Positions 19,985-27,498 of a stretch of DNA of 64,000 nucleotides are shown piece after piece. The notes under the pieces were generated by a model that had not been told where the DNA came from, did not search any database, and worked only from the letters and a program-made list of their open reading frames with translations. Origin of the DNA: an uncultured cyanobacterium (lineage in GTDB: Bacteria > Cyanobacteriota > Cyanobacteriia > Pseudanabaenales > Pseudanabaenaceae); contig OY969811.1 of the NCBI GenBank assembly GCA_963703315.1, positions 704,001 through 768,000 on the forward strand, read 5' to 3'. The position numbers and the translations under genes are program-made. The first letter of the stretch is position 1. Each line of letters begins with the position of its first letter.

Positions 19985-21244
19985 CTATATCGTAATTTTG
20001 GGACTGTTATACCAGTTATACGTCGGACTATCAGGCTCATCGTCGATACCTAATTGACTCTCCGCACCATCAATGCGAATGCGTACCAGATATTCTCCAG
20101 TTTTGATATTGGCAACGGGAATCTCAATGGTAGAAGTACTATTTGCTAGGGGAGGACGATCAAATAGATAGACAGTAGGCTCCTCAATTGTCCATTCATT
20201 TAAAGCTAAAACCACTTTCTGCTTTTCACGGACGATCACATCCAGTTGTACTACAATTATCGCCGATCGCAAATTATCCTCAATCTCTTCTAAATTCTGT
20301 ACCGACAGATTAAGAATCGTCGGACAAAGGACAAATGGCAGCACATTTGAGGCAATCTCATTGGTCATTAGAGGCGAAGTACTAGCAATGCGATGCACCA
20401 CTTGCAAACTCTGCACTCCTGCTTGAATAGTTTCTAAAGCTAGAGAAGTTAGAGAAAAAATGATCTCGCGATCTTGAACAGAAATAGGCGCAATCACTAA
20501 ATCACCAATATGGATTTCTACATTCTGGTTTTCTAAATTGCGTCCACGAATCAGCAGCGTACTGCCAATTAAGATCGGTTCAAAACGACTACCCTGAACC
20601 AGCACCTGCTCAATGTAAGGTGATGCAGGAAATGGCGCAATTCCTGAAGGAGAAGTATCGCGAATTGGTAAAGCTCTTTGGAATGTCTCCCGACCTTCGA
20701 CAATCACTAGACAAGCTCGATAGGCAACCGATAGCACATAGGGAACTTGATAAAAGACAGACCATGCTTTAGACAAATCTTCCAAAGAAATATCTATAGG
20801 TACAACATTGATCTGTTGAATTTGATCAGCAAGATCGGAATCAGCTAAAAATGGAAATGTAGCATCGTTACAAGTAGAACGAATCAGTTCAGGGGTAAGA
20901 ATCCGCTTATCAACAAGAGTACTCACCACACTTCCCAAAATCCTCTGGGGTTGTAGTTCTGCGTCATTACCATAGCAACTCATCATGTAATAGAGATCGA
21001 TCGCCACTTGCCGATTGAGGGGACTTCCCTTAGAGCGATTGGGGGTAGAGTCATAGTTAGCTAGAGAAGGATTGCTAGTTACTTGGTACAAAAAAATGTT
21101 TACCCCCACTTCTGGCGCACCTGTAGAAATTCCCCCTGGCGGTAAAGTCGTAGCTCGCGCCCCTTCGATATCCTGTTGAATGACCGCTTGCAAGACTCGT
21201 TGCAAAGTTGCCGTAACTGTCGCGATCGCTAAATAATTACTCAT
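19985..21244 (-). CDS. DUF4255 (Pvc16/Afp16-like) CIS cap/terminator protein with C-terminal Ig-like extension
   Basis: MSNYLAIATVTATL, VNIFLYQV, LSKAWS..PYVLSVAY; adjacent to tail genes. Confidence 0.8.
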   Translation of the reverse strand: MSNYLAIATVTATLQRVLQAVIQQDIEGARATTLPPGGISTGAPEVGVNIFLYQVTSNPSLANYDSTPNRSKGSPLNRQVAIDLYYMMSCYGNDAELQPQRILGSVVSTLVDKRILTPELIRSTCNDATFPFLADSDLADQIQQINVVPIDISLEDLSKAWSVFYQVPYVLSVAYRACLVIVEGRETFQRALPIRDTSPSGIAPFPASPYIEQVLVQGSRFEPILIGSTLLIRGRNLENQNVEIHIGDLVIAPISVQDREIIFSLTSLALETIQAGVQSLQVVHRIASTSPLMTNEIASNVLPFVLCPTILNLSVQNLEEIEDNLRSAIIVVQLDVIVREKQKVVLALNEWTIEEPTVYLFDRPPLANSTSTIEIPVANIKTGEYLVRIRIDGAESQLGIDDEPDSPTYNWYNSPKITI

Positions 21245-21935
21245 CCGTACTCACCAAACCTAATTTTAAAGCCCTCACAATTGCTTGGGTACGACTAGCC
21301 ACACCCAACTTCTCAAAGACACTCGTTAAATGTGCCTTGACCGTGGCGATCGTCACATATAAGTAGCGCGAAATCTCCTCATTTGATGCTCCCTTAATCA
21401 ACCAGTTCAGCACCTCCTGTTCGCGATCGGTTAAATGAATTTTGGAATGCACCTGTAGCGATCGCCCCGCATAAAAATGAAAAATCCGAAAGAAACTAGT
21501 GGCAATATCAGGGGGCAAGAAAATCTCATCATTCATCACAGTGGAAATCGCATCGTACAACTGACTACCAATGCGATCCTTTGCCACATAGCCCCGCGCC
21601 CCTAACTGCATCGCTCTAAACACCAACTCATCCTCACGATGTGCCGACAAAATCAAAGCCTTGCCATGATAATCCAATTTTTTTAAATCCATTAAGACTT
21701 GCAATCCACTGTCTTCAGGTAATTCTAAAGCCAACTTTACATCCAAAAGAATCAAAGCAGGCTTCTGCTCAATTACGAGCTTGATCGCTTGCTCACTAGA
21801 GGTTGCCTCCCCCACAATCTGAAATTGTAGATAGCAATCATCACTATAAAAGCTCAGCAGCGTATGCAAACCTCGACGAAAAATGGAATCATTTTCTACT
21901 AATAAAACTGATACTACTTGAGCCGTTGTTGTCAT
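21237..21935 (-). CDS. NarL/LuxR-family response regulator
   Basis: Receiver LILLDV..GYVAK; HTH LTDREQEVL..TVKAHLTSVFEKLGVASR. Confidence 0.93.
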   Translation of the reverse strand: MTTTAQVVSVLLVENDSIFRRGLHTLLSFYSDDCYLQFQIVGEATSSEQAIKLVIEQKPALILLDVKLALELPEDSGLQVLMDLKKLDYHGKALILSAHREDELVFRAMQLGARGYVAKDRIGSQLYDAISTVMNDEIFLPPDIATSFFRIFHFYAGRSLQVHSKIHLTDREQEVLNWLIKGASNEEISRYLYVTIATVKAHLTSVFEKLGVASRTQAIVRALKLGLVSTDE

Positions 21936-22042
21936 AGATCATTCTTTTAATTTCTCACTAGCAGCAATAAAAACTTTTTCAAGAAACTTCAGTAGGTAAA
22001 TACGCTTACTCAGACATTTGGCTAACATCACCACAAACGCTA

Positions 22043-22143
22043 AGTAGCTGGGCGCAATTAAATATAAAACCCCAAAACCTGTGGCGCACGAGCAGCGTGC
22101 GCCACAGGTTTTGGATCTGGTTTTTTAATTATGCCTAGCTACT
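22043..22143. mobile_element. MITE family A (TA TSD), reverse orientation to the 15675 copy
   Basis: TA-AGTAGCTGGGC..GCCTAGCTACT-TA with the same central hairpin. Confidence 0.88.
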
Positions 22144-22372
22144 TACAGCACGAATACTAGAGAAATACTGCCAAAATCAATACTTTTCCAGTAAGCTTTT
22201 CAACACATACGCAAATTATCTTGACTTTGAAATAAAACGTAATACACATTAAATTTCATCTAAAAGCTTTTATTAATCCTTAGCAATTGTTAACAAAACT
22301 TTTATTAATTCTTAGTAATTAAATTTTGTTTAATCCCAAGAACTTTTACTTAGTCTCATTTTAGTAAAAGTA

Positions 22373-22386
22373 TAGACTAAAGTCTA
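22373..22386. promoter_or_regulatory. Candidate operator for the NarL/LuxR regulator
   Basis: Palindrome TAGACT-AA-AGTCTA 62 bp upstream of the sheath start. Confidence 0.45.
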
Positions 22387-22448
22387 ATAACCCTTAAATT
22401 TAATCCTACCTACTGTATACCCCTATAGACATAGTTAAAGGGTGGCAT

Positions 22449-24158
22449 ATGGCACTAGACTACTTCGCCCCGGGCGTATACGTCGAAGAGGTTGATAAAG
22501 GCAGTCGTCCGATTGAAGGGATCAGCCTGAGTGTGGCGGGATTTATTGGATTTACAGAAGATGTTCGCGGTGATGCAGAACTATTCAAGCCAATGATGGT
22601 GACATCGTGGGATCAATATCGGGAATACTTTGCAGCTCCTGGATCTGACGGATACACCGACTTTGATGCTTACTTACCCTTTGCGGTTAGCGGCTGGTTC
22701 GTCAATGGTGGCGGACGCTGTTGGGTTACAAGTATCGGTACAAAATTGCCTGGTTCAACCCCTCCACCTCCCGAAGCAACGGCTTTAAAGATCGGCACAT
22801 CTAACAATAAGCCAGCCCTGATGTTTAACATCAAGCCTGCTGATGCCTCCGAAAGTCAATTAGCTCTGCCCTCCTCAGGCGATCGCCTCAAAGTGATCAT
22901 CCAAGAGAGTACTCCTAAGCCCTTACCTGATGATGCTCCTGCCGATGCTGAGCCACCTTTAAACACTGGTGAATTTTTCAATGTATTAGTTGTTCGTGGC
23001 GGACAAGAACTCGAAAGATTCGAGAATGTCTCCATGAATCCACAGGTAGCGACCGATGTTGCTGACTATGTAGTCACAGCGATCGCTGATTCCGAATATG
23101 TCACCATTGCCGACATCTCCACCAGTGGACAGCCTCTCTCCCGCCGTCCCGCCAATGGAGCCTACGAAATCGCACCACCTCCTTATATCTCCACAGTTGA
23201 TCGCTTTGCTCGCGACCTTCTAGGACAAAGAGACGATCGCACAGGCATTCAAGGGATGTTTGAAATCGACGAAACGGCAATGATTGCCTGTCCTGACCTC
23301 ATGCGCGTCTACGAAGCAGGACTGATCGATATCGATCAAGTGCATGGAGTTATGGAAATGATGCTCAGTATGTGCGAAAACTCCTTCCCAGGACCAGCCT
23401 TCCGCATGGCAGTCATCGATCCCCCACCGATCAAGCCATCTAAAGGCATGGAAGCCGTACCACCCGATCGCCAAAAACCTCAAGACGTAGCCCAATGGTT
23501 GAGTATGTTCAACCGCCGCTCCATGTTTGGCGCACTCTACTATCCTTGGATCAAGGTTGCCAACCCGCGCAAAGGTGGTAAACCCTCCTACATTCCTCCC
23601 TGTGGTCACATCATGGGTCTCTGGTGTCGTACTGATCAATCTCGCGGTATCTTCAAAGCGCCAGCCAACGACACCCCTAGAGGCGTACTCGGCTTAGCTT
23701 ATGAAACCAATATGCGTGAGCAAGAACTCTTAAACCCCATTGGCATCAACTGTATTCGTAACTTTGCCAGCTACAATCGCGGCTTCAAAGTATGGGGCGC
23801 ACGCACCCTCGTCGAACCTGACAACATTCAGTGGCGCTATATCAGTGTCCGCCGTCTGATCAGCTACATCGAGAAATCGATCGAAATTGGTACTCAATGG
23901 GTTGTCTTTGAACCTAACGACACCGATCTCTGGGCAAGAGTAACTCGCACCGTCAGCAATTTCCTTGAAGGACTCTGGCGTAATGGTGCATTATTTGGTG
24001 GCGCATCTTCAGAATCGTTTTACGTTAAATGTGATGCTTCTCTAAATACTCACGAAACCATGATGATGGGTCGTCTATTCATTGAAGTTGGCATTTGTCC
24101 AGTCCGACCTGCGGAATTTGTAATCTTCCGCGTCAGTCAATGGTCACCTAATAGTTAA
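22449..24158 (+). CDS. Contractile tail sheath protein (CIS)
   Basis: APGVYVEEV, LYYPWIKV, KAPAN, VWGARTL, WRYISVRR, VFEPN, PVRPAEFV. Confidence 0.95.
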   Translation: MALDYFAPGVYVEEVDKGSRPIEGISLSVAGFIGFTEDVRGDAELFKPMMVTSWDQYREYFAAPGSDGYTDFDAYLPFAVSGWFVNGGGRCWVTSIGTKLPGSTPPPPEATALKIGTSNNKPALMFNIKPADASESQLALPSSGDRLKVIIQESTPKPLPDDAPADAEPPLNTGEFFNVLVVRGGQELERFENVSMNPQVATDVADYVVTAIADSEYVTIADISTSGQPLSRRPANGAYEIAPPPYISTVDRFARDLLGQRDDRTGIQGMFEIDETAMIACPDLMRVYEAGLIDIDQVHGVMEMMLSMCENSFPGPAFRMAVIDPPPIKPSKGMEAVPPDRQKPQDVAQWLSMFNRRSMFGALYYPWIKVANPRKGGKPSYIPPCGHIMGLWCRTDQSRGIFKAPANDTPRGVLGLAYETNMREQELLNPIGINCIRNFASYNRGFKVWGARTLVEPDNIQWRYISVRRLISYIEKSIEIGTQWVVFEPNDTDLWARVTRTVSNFLEGLWRNGALFGGASSESFYVKCDASLNTHETMMMGRLFIEVGICPVRPAEFVIFRVSQWSPNS

Positions 24159-24165
24159 AGTCTAG

Positions 24166-24200
24166 GGATTGTTTCCCTGCCGAAGGCAGGGAAACAATCC
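24166..24200. terminator. Hairpin after the sheath gene
   Basis: GGATTGTTTCCCTGCC-GAA-GGCAGGGAAACAATCC. Confidence 0.65.
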
Positions 24201-24398
24201 TCTGTAGCTAGCTTGCGTAAAAAGCGCTATCACAAACTGATTTTTGTCCTGTCTTTTGGGGAGAAATCAGTCTATTTCTAGAAACTTATCGCTTTTTTAA
24301 GATTTGCAATGTGTTTTTTATGAATTCATTGCTTAGGTTTTTAGGATGATAAGTTGTTTGTATGAACACAGAAACTCATATTTTTTTAGGCAGAAAGA

Positions 24399-24872
24399 AT
24401 GGCTGATCTTATACCAATTCCTACTAGTCGATACTATGTAGAATTTAAAGGGTTGGAGAACAAATTAGTAAAGAGCGTCTCCGAAGTTACCTTTACAGCT
24501 CAGACAGCAGGACACGAAAAGCCCCTTGCCTCAACTAAAGACGGCAAGACAATTTGGCAGAGTACTTCATCAGGATTTGAAGAAAATCCCAACGTTACTC
24601 TTGAAGTGTATGTCACCGAAGGAGACATGGACTTTTACAATTGGATGCTGTCTACAATGCCAAAAAGTGAGGGCGGTAAGGGAGAGTGGTCTAGTATGCG
24701 TAAAGATGGCTCCATCGTTGCTTACGATAGTGAAGACAAGGAGGTGCTGCGTTGGAATCTCACAAAATGTTGGATTAAGTCTTACAAGGTGAGTGAATTC
24801 AGTTCTGAAAGTAAAGACCTAGCAGTTGAGACTTATGAGATTATTGCCGAACAAATCAACCGAGCTAAATAG
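24399..24872 (+). CDS. T4 gp19-like tail tube protein 1
   Basis: FYNW..RKDGSIVAYD..RWNL..W..Y..AVETYEI pattern; follows the sheath. Confidence 0.82.
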   Translation: MADLIPIPTSRYYVEFKGLENKLVKSVSEVTFTAQTAGHEKPLASTKDGKTIWQSTSSGFEENPNVTLEVYVTEGDMDFYNWMLSTMPKSEGGKGEWSSMRKDGSIVAYDSEDKEVLRWNLTKCWIKSYKVSEFSSESKDLAVETYEIIAEQINRAK

Positions 24873-24933
24873 ATTTACCTAATTAACAAGCTCTAGGTAT
24901 AACGATTTAATAAATTTTTGAGGTCAAAAAACT

Positions 24934-25407
24934 ATGGCGAGTGGTGAAATTTTAGCTTGCTCCAAGTACTACTTCAACTTAACTGGACTTGACGACTTGA
25001 TTGTCAAAAAAGTAAGTGGTATTGGTTCAACCTTGCAAACTGCTGGAGACTCCAAATCCTACGGTGTATCTAAGGATGGTAAGTCAGTTATTCAGGCAAC
25101 CGTAACAGGCGTAACTAACAGTAAAATCACTGTTGAGTTTGTTTCTACGGTTGGAGATGATCGGCTTGTAAAATGGTATAGCGATTCGCATAGTGAGCCG
25201 ATCGCTGGCGGCGGTACAAAGACAAAGGGTGAAAGAAAAACAGGTTCAATCACTCTTTACAATCAGGGTGGTGAACCAGCAGCGACTTGGGAGATGACAG
25301 GCGTGATGCCTGCTAGCTATAAGTCAAGCAAATTTGAAGCGGGGTCAGAAGGGCTTGCGACTGAGACACTTGAGTTTGTATATCAAACTTTACATCGCAA
25401 AAAATAA
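24934..25407 (+). CDS. T4 gp19-like tail tube protein 2
   Basis: KW..RKTGSITLYNQ..W..P.SY..ATETLEF. Confidence 0.82.
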   Translation: MASGEILACSKYYFNLTGLDDLIVKKVSGIGSTLQTAGDSKSYGVSKDGKSVIQATVTGVTNSKITVEFVSTVGDDRLVKWYSDSHSEPIAGGGTKTKGERKTGSITLYNQGGEPAATWEMTGVMPASYKSSKFEAGSEGLATETLEFVYQTLHRKK

Positions 25408-25557
25408 CTTTCATCCTCGAAGTAATTACAGCGCTTGGCGCTGAATGAAAACCCAAAGAAATTTTTGAAAGCGACGCAAAGCGTCGCTTTCAAAAATTTC
25501 TCTGTACTACTTAAGAGATTGTTTTCCCACCAATTTTGTGTAGCGCGGCGTAGCCGC

Positions 25558-25607
25558 GCAATATAAAAAAAGCAATATAAAAAAAGCAATATAAAAAAAG
25601 CAATATA
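25558..25607 (+). repeat. 14-bp tandem repeat (GCAATATAAAAAAA) x3.6
   Basis: Read directly; ends 17 bp before the tube-3 start. Confidence 0.9.
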
Positions 25608-25624
25608 GAGTTTGTGGTAATTGT

Positions 25625-26116
25625 ATGACCGACGAACCTCAAATTGAGTTTTTAGCTAGTTCTCGATTTTATATAGAAATTACTTTGCATGGTAGCCTTG
25701 AGAAAATTGATGGCTACTTTATGGAATGTAGCGGCTTATCCCGTAGCCAAGAAATGATTGAGATTGTGGAAGTAACTCCACAAATTTGGGGTAGGAGTGG
25801 TTCTACTAAGGGCAGAGTCGTCAGGACAAAAATTCCTGGTAATGTCAAAAGTGACAATATTATTCTCAAGCAAGGGCTTACTCTGTCCATGACCATGTGG
25901 AACTGGTTAAAGGCTGTTGAAGATGGCAAATGGTCACAACAATTCCGCGATGGGGATATTACCATTTACGATCAGTCCGCCACTGAGAGAGCAAGATTTC
26001 GATTTAATGGGGCTTGGCCAGTGCGCTATAAAATTTCTGACTTTAAGGCGGATAGTGGCGAGTTTGCCGTGACTGAGGTAGAGTTAAGCGTTAGAGATTT
26101 TTTACGGATTAATTAA
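25625..26116 (+). CDS. T4 gp19-like tail tube protein 3
   Basis: GYFMECSGL, KIPG..NIILKQG, WNW, RDGDITIYD, AWPVRY. Confidence 0.9.
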   Translation: MTDEPQIEFLASSRFYIEITLHGSLEKIDGYFMECSGLSRSQEMIEIVEVTPQIWGRSGSTKGRVVRTKIPGNVKSDNIILKQGLTLSMTMWNWLKAVEDGKWSQQFRDGDITIYDQSATERARFRFNGAWPVRYKISDFKADSGEFAVTEVELSVRDFLRIN

Positions 26117-26130
26117 TTTAATTCACTTCT

Positions 26131-26433
26131 ATGGTTCAAACCGAGTTTGAATTTACACTCCCCAAAGGATATGTTGACAGTGATGGGAATCTGCATCGTA
26201 AAGGTGTGATGCGACTATCAAGGGCGATCGATGAAATTACGCCAATGCGCGACCCTCGTGTAAAGGGGAATCCCGCTTATGCAACTGTAATTATTTTGTC
26301 TAGAGTGATCACTAAATTGGGGGGACTAGAAGAGATTAATCCTATGGTTATCGAAAATTTGTTTGCTAGTGATCTCAGTTATCTACAAAAGTTTTATCGT
26401 CAGATTAATGAGCTAGAAGAAGTAGAATCTTAG
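26131..26433 (+). CDS. CIS tail-assembly chaperone-like protein
   Basis: TEFEFTLPKGYVD..HRKGVMRL..DEI.P.RDPRV..DLSYLQ.FY..IN, as in eCIS loci. Confidence 0.8.
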   Translation: MVQTEFEFTLPKGYVDSDGNLHRKGVMRLSRAIDEITPMRDPRVKGNPAYATVIILSRVITKLGGLEEINPMVIENLFASDLSYLQKFYRQINELEEVES

Positions 26434-26436
26434 ATA

Positions 26437-26523
26437 AGTAAGTCGGCTTAATTAACTATAAAGATGCAAAACCTGTAGCGCAAGCTCAGCTTGTGCTACA
26501 GGTTTTGCATCTGGTTTCTAATT
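26437..26523. mobile_element. Truncated MITE family A-related remnant at the CIS/MoxR junction
   Basis: TA-AGTAAGTCGGC left end and AAAACCTGTAGCGC..GTGCTACAGGTTTT hairpin; right end missing. Confidence 0.6.
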
Positions 26524-26547: not shown

Positions 26548-27498
26548 ATGAGCAAAACTCAGGCGATCTTCCATCAACTTGCAGAGCAACTGAGCCATGT
26601 AGTTTTTGGACAATCTGTACTTGTCAATCAGTTACTGATTGCACTTCTATCTAGCGGTCATGTGATTCTTGAAGGTGTACCCGGAACTGGCAAGACCCTT
26701 ACAGTTAAAGTTCTCGCCAAACTTTTACAGGCAGAATTTCGGCGTATTCAACTGACTCCAGATATTCTGCCATCAGATATTCTGGGTACGAATATTTTTG
26801 ATCTCAACACTCGCAAGTTCGTCCTCAAAAAAGGTCCGATTTTTACCCAGATTCTATTAACGGATGAGATTAATCGCACACCACCAAAGACACAGGCGGC
26901 TTTATTAGAGGCAATGGAAGAGCGTCAAGTTACTCTTGATGGAGAAAGTTTGCCCCTGTCGGAACTATTCTGGACGATCGCTACACAAAATTCTCTAGAG
27001 TTTGAAGGTACTTATCCTTTGCCAGAAGCTCAGTTGGATCGCTTTCTATTTAAATTAATTGTGAACTATCCCGATCCTGTCGCGGAGAAGCAGATGTTGT
27101 TAGGTAGTCATACAGGCGGGCATAACAATCGTAATAATTTAGCAGAATTGAAGGCGATCGCTACGGTTGAGCAATGTTTGCAAGCACAGCAGGAAGTCCG
27201 CGCTGTTAATATTCATGAATCGGTAATTGATTACCTATTAGCACTGGTTGAGCGGACAAGGCGACATCCTGATTTATCGCTAGGTGCTTCCCCAAGGGCA
27301 GCAGTTGCTTGGTTGTTGGCTAGTAAAGCCTCTGCTTGGCTAGCGGAACGAGAGTTTGTTACTCCCGATGATATCAAGGCAGTTGCGCCGCCTCTATTGC
27401 GTCACCGTCTGATTTTGCGCCCTGAAGCACAATTAGATGGAGTATCAGTTGATCCAGTCATTCAATCCCTTCTCAATCAGGTTCCTGTGCCAAGATGA
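26548..27498 (+). CDS. MoxR-family AAA+ ATPase
   Basis: GVPGTGKT, RIQLTPD, DEINRTPPKTQAALLE, YPLPEAQLDRF. Confidence 0.95.
   Translation: MSKTQAIFHQLAEQLSHVVFGQSVLVNQLLIALLSSGHVILEGVPGTGKTLTVKVLAKLLQAEFRRIQLTPDILPSDILGTNIFDLNTRKFVLKKGPIFTQILLTDEINRTPPKTQAALLEAMEERQVTLDGESLPLSELFWTIATQNSLEFEGTYPLPEAQLDRFLFKLIVNYPDPVAEKQMLLGSHTGGHNNRNNLAELKAIATVEQCLQAQQEVRAVNIHESVIDYLLALVERTRRHPDLSLGASPRAAVAWLLASKASAWLAEREFVTPDDIKAVAPPLLRHRLILRPEAQLDGVSVDPVIQSLLNQVPVPR

What the first reader, a model, noticed from the sequence alone, without database searches (positions are those of the whole stretch)
19985..26433. Regulator-linked contractile injection module with three tube genes but no baseplate, spike or tape measure
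Seen: [DUF4255 <- LuxR regulator] divergent from [sheath, tube, tube, tube, chaperone], bounded by hom and a MITE remnant. No VgrG, PAAR, gp25, baseplate, LysM, Afp15-type ATPase or capsid gene is in the window. Established: eCIS loci (PVC, Afp, MAC, Anabaena thylakoid CIS, Streptomyces cytoplasmic CIS) normally carry these parts together. Inference: a CIS split over several loci, or a reduced sheath-tube assembly with another role. All six structural ORFs are intact, which argues against decay.
Basis: partly seen in the sequence, partly recalled or inferred. Interest (0 to 1): 0.72.

Follow-up and report, generated by a model that had tools for sequence, protein, structure and literature searches.

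The report
Scattered but complete cyanobacterial injection syringe
The "missing" baseplate, spike and ATPase genes sit elsewhere on the same chromosome, so these genes are the shaft-and-cap part of a complete, scattered gene set that likely builds a syringe-like protein machine of a known kind, whose activity in cyanobacteria is untested.

Summary
In detail: cap (Pvc16/DUF4255), a response regulator, a sheath, three tube genes and a tail chaperone lie at 19985-26433, all intact, with no other tail gene in the window. The reduced sheath-tube reading fails its own refutation test. The closed chromosome holds one baseplate J, gp25, VgrG, DUF4280 spike tip, CIS-tube initiator, fourth tube and Afp15-type ATPase, spread over four more loci 0.28-1.49 Mb away, plus a DUF4157 protein at a sixth. 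Six markers co-occur in 30 of the 33 family genomes with any of them. One distant cyanobacterium has nearly all orthologues in one 34-kb cluster. dN/dS is 0.03-0.17 for all 18 genes tested. Sheath, baseplate and spike are closest to the Streptomyces coelicolor cytoplasmic system (subtype IId), not the Anabaena thylakoid one. Lineage II normally has no tape measure, Streptomyces has a linked LuxR-type regulator, and a split cyanobacterial IId locus is already catalogued. Modest remaining interest: extreme scattering, two long-retained major-tube paralogues, an orphan regulator with a conserved palindrome, and no functional study of this cyanobacterial clade found. This scan reported the same system before, from its baseplate locus in this genome.

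The parts
19985..21244 (-). Cap / tube-terminator protein (Afp16/Pvc16 family = DUF4255), 419 aa, with a weak C-terminal Ig-like (TIG) match
   Evidence: Pvc16_N 125 bits, TIG E 5.6e-4; the only Pvc16_N match in the genome; dN/dS 0.10
21237..21935 (-). NarL/LuxR-type response regulator (receiver + HTH), 232 aa; overlaps the cap gene start by 8 nt; orphan (linked kinase not found in this family)
   Evidence: orthologue in exactly the 31 of 71 family genomes that have the sheath orthologue, always beside it; D65, S97, K119 kept, acidic pocket E14-N15
22041..22145 (.). Palindromic genome-wide repeat (REP/MITE-like), about 216 sites; not specific to the module
22373..22386 (.). Perfect 6-2-6 inverted repeat 76 nt upstream of the sheath start; candidate binding site of the divergent regulator (inferred)
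   Evidence: Only perfect copy in the genome (0.44 expected by base composition, my estimate); same 14 letters in G000 and the 9 same-genus relatives shown and in 6 of 6 named Pseudanabaena loci; arms kept with a changed spacer in Tumidithrix; 2 or more mismatches in the 17 more distant loci checked
22449..24158 (+). Contractile sheath (Cis2), 569 aa
   Evidence: Pfam sheath domains; only sheath in the genome; best PDB match S. coelicolor CIS sheath 8BKY, 357 bits full length, against 159 bits for Anabaena All3325; 92-97% identity across the genus; dN/dS 0.03
24399..24872 (+). Tube 1, major-tube (Cis1a-like) paralogue, 157 aa
   Evidence: gp19 family; predicted fold (mean pLDDT 71) best matches chain 1a of the S. 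coelicolor CIS cap structure 9GTS, E 6.9e-8
24934..25407 (+). Tube 2, second major-tube paralogue, 157 aa, 36% identical to tube 1
   Evidence: position-2 tubes group apart from position-1 tubes across several cyanobacterial families
25625..26116 (+). Tube 3, Cis5/Cis1b-like (initiator/adaptor-type) tube, 163 aa; sister group of the fourth tube at C1:2167959-2168465
   Evidence: CIS5_fam 38.8 bits below cut-off, TIGR02241 over cut-off; tube3+tube4 clade SH-aLRT 97 in a quick tree
26131..26433 (+). Tail assembly chaperone-like protein, 100 aa; its paralogue, adjacent in most other cyanobacteria, lies at C1:1922130-1922432
   Evidence: PHROG 508
26435..26517 (.).

Best explanation
The window holds the cap, regulator, sheath and tube genes of one complete but scattered gene set, closest to the Streptomyces-type (subtype IId) contractile injection system, which likely assembles a working phage-tail-like syringe inside the cell. 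SHOWN: the chromosome has exactly one sheath, cap, gp25, baseplate J and VgrG. Locus A is the window. Locus B (C1:2157750-2168465) has tube 4, a 2271-aa low-complexity protein, the CIS-tube initiator, VgrG, a DUF4280 tip and gp25. Locus C (C1:2214686-2219460) has baseplate J, a TIGR02242 wedge and a Cis13-like protein. The Afp15-type ATPase is at C1:1010213, the second chaperone with an Ig-like membrane protein at C1:1922130-1925557, and a DUF4157 protein at C1:1853376. INFERRED, by homology to the solved Streptomyces particle: baseplate, spike and initiator tubes nucleate the tube, tubes 1 and 2 build its length, the sheath polymerises around it and the cap ends it. The divergent regulator likely drives the high-copy sheath-tube operon through the palindrome at 22373. 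Because sheath and tube are needed in hundreds of copies and the baseplate in a few, separate transcription units would let the modules drift apart by rearrangement. LEAST CERTAIN (about 0.5): the particle stays in the cytoplasm and fires into the producer's own membrane under stress or in development, as in Streptomyces. Single-pass Ig-domain proteins (974 aa, 723 aa) and the DUF4157 protein are candidate cargo or membrane adaptors.
For: Missing parts found in the own genome: Baseplate_J, gp25, fourth gp19 tube; TIGR02243 612 bits, VgrG_rel 373 bits and TIGR02242 117 bits, all over cut-off; CIS_tube, DUF4280; WHD+AAA ATPase; eCIS_core. Single copy of sheath and cap. Co-occurrence in 71 family genomes: sheath 31, baseplate 33, VgrG 32, ATPase 31, 974-aa protein 31, regulator 31; all six in 30, none in 38, partial in 3 (kin are not independent). 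G181 (another family) carries orthologues of all structural parts, the ATPase and DUF4157 proteins in one 34-kb cluster. Sheath-to-baseplate distance runs from 4.8 kb to 1.66 Mb in the 11 genomes where both share a contig. Median dN/dS 0.03-0.17 for 18 of 18 genes tested, 5-31 pairs each; dS is 0.95-2.0, so the ratios are rough. PDB: sheath 357 bits, baseplate 385 bits, VgrG 189 bits to S. coelicolor CIS, against 159, 31 and 106 for the next eCIS/tCIS types compared. Papers: split loci and eight core parts (PMC6899500); split IId locus in Nostoc sp. PCC 7107 (its Table S2 row); Streptomyces particle composition and lack of tape measure (PMC12237407).
Against: No particle, protein or mutant has been seen for this organism. 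RNA evidence is only contigs of relatives in freshwater metatranscriptomes, with DNA carry-over not excluded. The sheath palindrome is not found upstream of the other modules (best 3 mismatches), so how the loci are co-ordinated is unexplained. The linked histidine kinase seen beside the regulator in 32 of 47 regulator-bearing cyanobacterial loci was not found in this family. The 148-aa initiator has no LysM match. Subtype rests on best matches and gene content, not on an Afp11 tree with reference subtypes. Homology of the 974-aa protein to Sco4256 or CisA was not shown: all 15 hits were cyanobacterial or unnamed.
Confidence: 0.88

Rival explanations
1. Same complete machine, but released on lysis to act on other cells (classical extracellular CIS) or tethered to a membrane, rather than acting on the producer from the cytoplasm.
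For: A 498-aa gene with a Cis13-like N-terminus follows the wedge genes, where fibres are usually encoded (CIS13_fam E 8.6e-9, below cut-off), and it has the highest dN/dS of the set (0.17). The DUF4157 protein has two hydrophobic helices, as cargo might.
Against: The nearest characterised relatives (Streptomyces, Roseiflexus; subtype IId) are cytoplasmic (PMC10066040, PMC12998442 passages). The 498-aa protein continues into DUF4159, not a known fibre domain.
Confidence: 0.35
2. Reduced sheath-tube assembly with a role of its own, independent of a baseplate.
For: The module travels as a unit with its own regulator and conserved palindrome. In 27 of 37 cyanobacterial loci with 9 kb or more of flank on both sides, no baseplate part lies within about 10 kb of the sheath.
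Against: All 31 family genomes with this sheath also have the baseplate J orthologue, and 30 of 31 have VgrG and the ATPase too. There is only one sheath for the one baseplate. A contiguous cluster exists in G181.
Confidence: 0.04
3. Decaying relic of a once contiguous cluster, broken up by rearrangement and no longer used.
For: The cluster is broken into six loci. 17 or more same-genus genomes lack it. G027 shows decay (sheath matched in two pieces; VgrG, ATPase and the 974-aa gene not found).
Against: All G000 ORFs are full length without internal stops; dN/dS 0.03-0.17; sheath 92-97% identical across the genus; upstream element invariant.
Confidence: 0.05
4. Prophage tail remnant or thylakoid-anchored CIS of the Anabaena type.
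For: Sheath, gp25 and wedge match phage-tail PHROGs; the host is a cyanobacterium.
Against: No Terminase_6N match in the genome while 5 of 14 controls ring; eCIS-specific families present (Pvc16_N, CIS_tube, eCIS_core, VgrG_rel); Anabaena sheath matches only the C-terminal third at less than half the Streptomyces score; the baseplate search returned no Anabaena chain.
Confidence: 0.03

Closest known systems
Streptomyces coelicolor cytoplasmic CIS / S. lividans SLP (eCIS subtype IId; PDB 8BKY, 9GTP, 9GTR, 9GTS; PMC10066040, PMC10020575, PMC12237407, PMC8505568)
   Same: Best structural-database match for sheath, baseplate J, VgrG and tube 1; same core parts (Cis1a/1b, 2, 7, 8, 9, 11, 12, 16, ATPase); no tape measure; a linked LuxR-type regulator; accessory proteins with Ig-like domains and one membrane helix (architecture only).
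   Different: Genes scattered over six loci instead of one cluster; four gp19-type tubes instead of two; the regulator is a two-component receiver + HTH protein; a DUF4280 tip and a Cis13-like/DUF4159 gene are present; no CisA or Sco4256 homologue was shown; the host is a diderm phototroph.
'Split' eCIS loci of dbeCIS, including the IId locus A0677 of Nostoc sp. PCC 7107 (PMC6899500, text and Table S2)
   Same: Tube and baseplate genes at separate loci in a cyanobacterium, subtype IId.
   Different: The paper describes split systems as two locations; here there are six, and the cap, ATPase, spike and wedge modules are each separate. Pseudanabaena occurs in the supplements searched only once, in the list of genomes screened (one file was cut when stored).
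Roseiflexus / Chloroflexota CIS (subtype IId; PMC12998442)
   Same: IId system in a filamentous phototroph; particles seen free in the cytoplasm.
   Different: Different phylum; not compared by sequence here.
Anabaena PCC 7120 thylakoid-anchored CIS (PDB 7B5H/7B5I; PMC8894136)
   Same: Cyanobacterial host; homologous sheath, tube and spike.
   Different: One 15-gene cluster; far lower sequence scores (sheath 159 vs 357 bits, VgrG 106 vs 189); a different lineage, so thylakoid anchoring cannot be assumed.

Membership tests
eCIS-like system (dbeCIS core, PMC6899500) | Afp1/5 tube genes | tested here: met
   Four gp19-family genes, three in the window
eCIS-like system (dbeCIS core, PMC6899500) | Afp2/3/4 sheath | tested here: met
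eCIS-like system (dbeCIS core, PMC6899500) | Afp7 tube initiator (listed with a LysM domain) | tested here: inconclusive
   CIS_tube PF19266 77 bits at C1:2160633, directly before VgrG, but the 148-aa ORF has no LysM match
eCIS-like system (dbeCIS core, PMC6899500) | Afp8 VgrG spike and Afp9 gp25 | tested here: met
   VgrG_rel 373 bits; GPW_gp25 70 bits
eCIS-like system (dbeCIS core, PMC6899500) | Afp11 baseplate J | tested here: met
   TIGR02243 612 bits
eCIS-like system (dbeCIS core, PMC6899500) | Afp15 AAA+ ATPase and Afp16 cap | tested here: met
   WHD + AAA, 678 aa, next to the cap gene in G065, G066, G181; Pvc16_N
Contiguous eCIS locus (dbeCIS rule: neighbouring parts within 30 kb) | Afp1/5 and Afp11 in one region | tested here: not met
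   Sheath-tube module 1.49 Mb from baseplate J; tube 4 is 46 kb from it; fits the paper's 'split locus' class instead
Subtype IId | One afp11 copy, VgrG as a single ORF, afp10-type tip present | tested here: met
   One baseplate J match; 642-aa VgrG with hub and OB-fold parts; DUF4280 PAAR-like tip
Subtype IId | No Afp14 tape measure | tested here: inconclusive
   CIS_TMP not found, but no control genome rang either; the 2271-aa low-complexity protein has no family match
Subtype IId | Placement in the Afp11 phylogeny with Streptomyces | tested here: inconclusive
   No tree with reference subtypes was built; best PDB match is S. coelicolor Cis11, 385 bits against 31 for the next
Cytoplasmic CIS (Streptomyces mode) | Free cytoplasmic particles that contract and cause producer cell death; needs membrane protein CisA | not testable with these tools
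   No imaging or mutants; CisA homology not tested for lack of a tool-supplied CisA sequence
Thylakoid-anchored CIS (Anabaena) | Sheath and baseplate of the Anabaena lineage with anchoring extensions | tested here: not met
Prophage | Terminase and head genes | tested here: not met
   No PF03237 match in the genome (one terminase family only); no head PHROG among window ORFs

The most novel reading that the evidence does not exclude
A cyanobacterial branch of subtype IId that is an active, self-targeting cytoplasmic injection system run as a dispersed regulon. Its sheath-tube operon is switched by a dedicated response regulator (paired with a kinase in Nostoc-like taxa, orphaned in Pseudanabaena), and its tube is a fixed heteropolymer of two old paralogues with two initiator-type rings, which could set length or cargo without a tape measure. 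It would give filamentous cyanobacteria a second injection system for regulated cell death, distinct from the thylakoid one.
Probability: 0.2. Interest if true: 0.62.

Novelty: new member of a known kind. Interest (0 to 1): 0.3.

Why it matters
As a discovery it is modest: a known kind of machine whose genes are split. It matters in three smaller ways. (1) Cluster-based eCIS screens with a 30-kb rule would miss or mis-score this system, although it is present in about two thirds of the genus sample, so cyanobacterial IId systems are probably under-counted. (2) No functional study of a cyanobacterial IId system turned up in six literature searches, so a culturable Pseudanabaena with a single such system is a clean test of whether Streptomyces-style regulated cell death extends to cyanobacterial filaments. 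(3) The regulator, its candidate operator and the two major-tube paralogues give concrete, cheap handles for that test.

Tried and rejected
Reduced sheath-tube machine: rejected. Mobile island bounded by a MITE: rejected; the repeats occur at 54-216 genomic sites, GC stays within 0.38-0.51 across the region, and neither hom nor the MoxR gene neighbours the module in 11 relatives. MoxR ATPase at 26548 as the CIS ATPase: rejected. Shared operator for all dispersed modules: not found; none of the 11 other upstream regions scanned had a match with fewer than 3 mismatches, and the 7 other genomic sites with one mismatch are fewer than chance would give (chance figure is my estimate). Link of the 974-aa protein to Streptomyces Sco4256: search of residues 105-505 among shorter proteins gave 15 hits, none named from Actinomycetes, with only the best-sharing 7997 candidates scored; the resemblance rests on architecture (Ig-like Pfam matches in homologues; one membrane helix) and on the paper's statement that such homologues occur in cyanobacterial IId regions (PMC10020575). 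Cap protein against PDB sequences: no match. CIS_TMP search: uninformative, no control rang. Cognate kinase in the family: 0 of 71 at E<=1e-35, but no positive control was in that set and only up to 28 candidates per genome were scored; for G000 a full ORF search found only generic kinase-domain matches at 26-38% identity. Expression: no raw-read run was offered; 5 RNA runs hold 5-11% of the words. Contigs of relatives cover sheath, tubes, chaperone, regulator and parts of the cap gene and, on G021's locus, baseplate J, gp25, wedge and parts of VgrG; flanking housekeeping genes are covered too, no silent stretch was laid, and depth was not used to rank genes. Tube tree: only the quick tree finished, with three long rows. 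Literature: searches 'contractile injection system'+'Pseudanabaena' (4 papers, 3 listed, none on this system), +'cyanobacteria'+'thylakoid', 'eCIS/cyanobacteria/IId/split', 'SlpR/LuxR', 'eCIS+Nostoc punctiforme+sheath' (0) and 'contractile injection/response regulator/histidine kinase/IId' (nothing relevant in the 10 listed); subscription journals are not covered. A word search of earlier findings returned nothing.


Full report
1. Observation. The seven ORFs lie as described: a Pvc16_N/DUF4255 cap gene and a receiver-LuxR regulator on the minus strand, divergent from a sheath, three gp19-family tube genes and a 100-aa chaperone-like gene. The other 55 window ORFs of 90 aa or more gave no phage head or tail family. 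The 'MITE remnant' is one of about 93 genomic copies of a palindromic repeat, and similar repeats sit inside the module. The downstream AAA gene is MoxR-type.

2. The rest of the machine. The window is G000:C1:704001-768000 of a single-contig 4.57-Mb genome, 99.67% complete. Family searches of that genome found baseplate J, gp25 and a fourth tube gene. Reading those regions gave locus B, C1:2157750-2168465 (tube 4, a 2271-aa low-complexity ORF, CIS_tube, VgrG_rel 373 bits, DUF4280, gp25), and locus C, C1:2214686-2219460 (TIGR02243 612 bits, TIGR02242 117 bits, a 498-aa gene with a weak Cis13-like start and DUF4159). A WHD+AAA ATPase lies at C1:1010213, an eCIS_core/DUF4157 protein at C1:1853376, and a second chaperone beside a 974-aa single-pass membrane protein at C1:1922130-1925557. 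Sheath and cap each have one match in the genome; one terminase family was sought and not found. Seven of the eight core eCIS parts named in PMC6899500 (passages) are clearly present; the eighth (Afp7) is present as a tube domain without LysM.

3. The pieces belong together. In 71 genomes of the family, orthologues of sheath, baseplate J, VgrG, ATPase, the 974-aa protein and the regulator were found in 31, 33, 32, 31, 31 and 31 genomes. All six occur in 30, none in 38, and three genomes are partial: G015 (85% complete), G049 (no sheath or regulator found) and G027 (sheath matched in two pieces, no VgrG, ATPase or 974-aa gene found). Orthologues were told from the second, unrelated CIS of some genomes by identity (57% or more, against 49% or less). 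Kin are not independent, so this is a description, not a statistical test. The window's gene order is kept in 11 of 11 relatives read; G065 and G066 have one extra gene between regulator and cap, then the ATPase. Loci B and C form one run in the 6 same-genus relatives where both were fetched, so the 46-kb gap between them is not general. The sheath-baseplate distance is 4.8 kb to 1.66 Mb in the 11 genomes where both share a contig, and 0.41-1.66 Mb in four closed or near-closed ones. G181, from another family, has cap, ATPase, sheath, tubes 1-4, both chaperones, the low-complexity gene, CIS-tube, VgrG, tip, gp25, baseplate J, wedge, the Cis13-like gene and two DUF4157 genes within 34 kb. All 18 genes tested show median dN/dS of 0.03-0.17 against relatives (5-31 pairs each; dS near saturation).

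4. Which kind. Against solved structures the sheath scores 357 bits over its full length with S. coelicolor CIS (8BKY) and 159 bits over its C-terminal third with Anabaena All3325. Baseplate J scores 385 bits with 9GTP and 31 with the next; VgrG 189 with 9GTR and 106 with Anabaena. The predicted tube 1 fold best matches a chain of the S. coelicolor cap structure. This points to subtype IId. The closest named sheath relatives are Pseudanabaena (94-97%) and Tumidithrix (82%). This sheath type occurs in 21 of 301 genomes drawn from the phylum.

5. Three tubes. Among the 80 best-matching cyanobacterial sheath loci, 75 had enough downstream sequence: 36 have three tube genes after the sheath, 35 two, 3 four and 1 five (two of the four-counts may be double ORF calls). 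So three tubes is common in this clade. In a quick tree of 116 tubes from 36 of the 80 loci plus G000, position-1 tubes form one group (SH-aLRT 99), position-2 tubes lie apart from them, and tubes 3 and 4 are sister groups (95, 100; together 97). Tubes 1 and 2 are thus an old, retained duplication of the major tube, and tubes 3 and 4 are initiator-type. A predicted tube 1-tube 2 pair scored 0.60 against a best control of 0.00, with runs agreeing in at least 90% of contacts and partner pLDDT at least 76. The tool calls this weak: its mark was reached by 116 of 157 solved complexes and 2 of 215 mismatches, but at 0.60 or under by only 18 solved complexes and both mismatches. Tube rings are solved structures and close cousins also pass, so it cannot tell a mixed tube from two separate ones.

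6. The regulator. It tracks the sheath exactly in the family and lies within about 10 kb of the sheath in 27 of 37 well-flanked cyanobacterial loci. In 32 of 47 loci with the regulator a 370-410-aa histidine kinase sits beside it; in 15, including all Pseudanabaenaceae read, it does not, and G000 has no orthologue of that kinase. The phospho-acceptor Asp65 is kept; the acidic pocket reads E-N where all 32 kinase-paired copies read D-D. A perfect 6-2-6 palindrome at 22373-22386 is invariant in the genus, keeps its arms in Tumidithrix and is unique in the genome. It is a candidate operator (paired-site binding by NarL-type regulators is recalled knowledge). It is not found before the other modules, so the regulator would control the sheath-tube operon only.

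7. Expression. Only assembled contigs from five freshwater RNA runs of two studies were offered. Contigs of relatives, mostly under 95% alike, cover the sheath-tube operon in the four runs laid and parts of the baseplate run of G021 in four runs of one study. This fits expression of both modules in nature but does not show it: DNA carry-over was not excluded.

8. Mechanism. Shown: a full, single-copy, conserved parts list. Inferred from the S. coelicolor particle (61 sheath and 60 tube layers on a baseplate of Cis1b/7/8/9/11/12, capped by Cis16; PMC12237407 passage): loci B and C build the baseplate and spike, locus A the shaft and cap. Separate promoters for high-copy and low-copy parts (S. 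coelicolor has four; PMC10020575 passage) would let modules move apart without loss of function. A role of the ATPase in cargo loading is recalled, not tested. Mode of action is open. I put cytoplasmic, producer-directed firing at about 0.5, because the characterised IId systems are cytoplasmic, and release or membrane tethering at about 0.35.

9. What I saw of the papers: PMC8894136, first of eight parts; PMC10066040, PMC12998442, PMC10020575, PMC12237407, PMC8505568 and PMC13277306, passages found by term; PMC6899500, passages and supplement rows, one file cut when stored; all others as search listings only. The supplements of PMC10020575, which list cyanobacterial IId homologues, were not read and may name this genus.

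10. Verdict. Observation confirmed; reduced-machine reading refuted; a new member of a known kind (split subtype IId contractile injection system). An earlier report of this scan on locus C of the same genome reached the same overall reading; I consulted it after my own tests and do not count it as evidence. Interest 0.30.

Noticed in passing
window 21237-21935; L048:13497-14615, L047:6058-7176, L043:9365-10549: The CIS-linked regulator has a dedicated 370-410-aa histidine kinase beside it in 32 of 47 cyanobacterial loci that carry it, but is an orphan in Pseudanabaenaceae; G000's copy has E-N instead of D-D in the acidic pocket.
   Followed up: partly
L014:9528-10898 (G000:C1:2219528-2220898): A dCache-HAMP membrane sensor with no output domain follows the baseplate genes, here and in relatives including G181; dN/dS 0.13.
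   Followed up: partly
L014:10955-13126 and L012:12633-15557: Two single-pass membrane proteins with N-terminal Ig-like domains (723 aa with WD40 C-terminus; 974 aa) travel with the system; architecture resembles the Sco4256 family, homology not shown.
   Followed up: partly
L008:8872-11268 (G000:C1:2168872-2171268): 798-aa kinase-like + membrane helix + periplasmic-binding-protein gene upstream of tube 4; homologues lie near the sheath in 16 of 37 well-flanked cyanobacterial loci.
   Followed up: partly
G000:C1 about 2168465-2168640, directly upstream of tube 4: Uncalled ORF of about 57 aa, conserved in 6 of 6 genomes read; by eye it resembles the C-terminal tail of the 2271-aa low-complexity protein.
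   Followed up: no
L013:11140-17955 (G000:C1:2161140-2167955): 2271-aa Ser/Asp/Gln-rich repetitive protein between tube 4 and the CIS-tube gene; 1016-2657 aa in relatives; no family match. Could be cargo or a length determinant.
   Followed up: no
L016:977-1333 (G000:C1:1009860-1010216): Small conserved ORF (about 74 aa in relatives) directly before the ATPase; lies between cap and ATPase in G065, G066 and G181; no Pfam match.
   Followed up: no
L015:1480-2193 (G000:C1:3013249-3013962): Stand-alone 237-aa winged-helix protein (PF22977, 176 bits) of the kind found at the N-terminus of Afp15-type ATPases, without an AAA domain.
   Followed up: no
G027:C68 (L023); G049: G027 looks like a decaying copy (sheath matched in two pieces, spike and ATPase not found); G049 (99% complete, 180 contigs) has baseplate, spike and ATPase but no sheath or regulator orthologue found.
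   Followed up: partly
G017:C6, G035:C47, G038:C64, G044:C144, G054, G055:C199, G058:C4: Several same-genus genomes carry a second, unrelated CIS with two sheath genes and a VgrG in two ORFs, as described for other lineage II subtypes.
   Followed up: no
L148, L151: These loci carry four major-tube paralogues in tandem before tube 3.
   Followed up: no
window 25558-25607: A 14-nt unit repeated about three and a half times just upstream of tube 3.
   Followed up: no
L027:10606-11676: A spermidine-synthase-like + SEC-C gene sits between regulator and cap in G065 and G066; homologues lie near the sheath in three other loci (L133, L135, L167).
   Followed up: no
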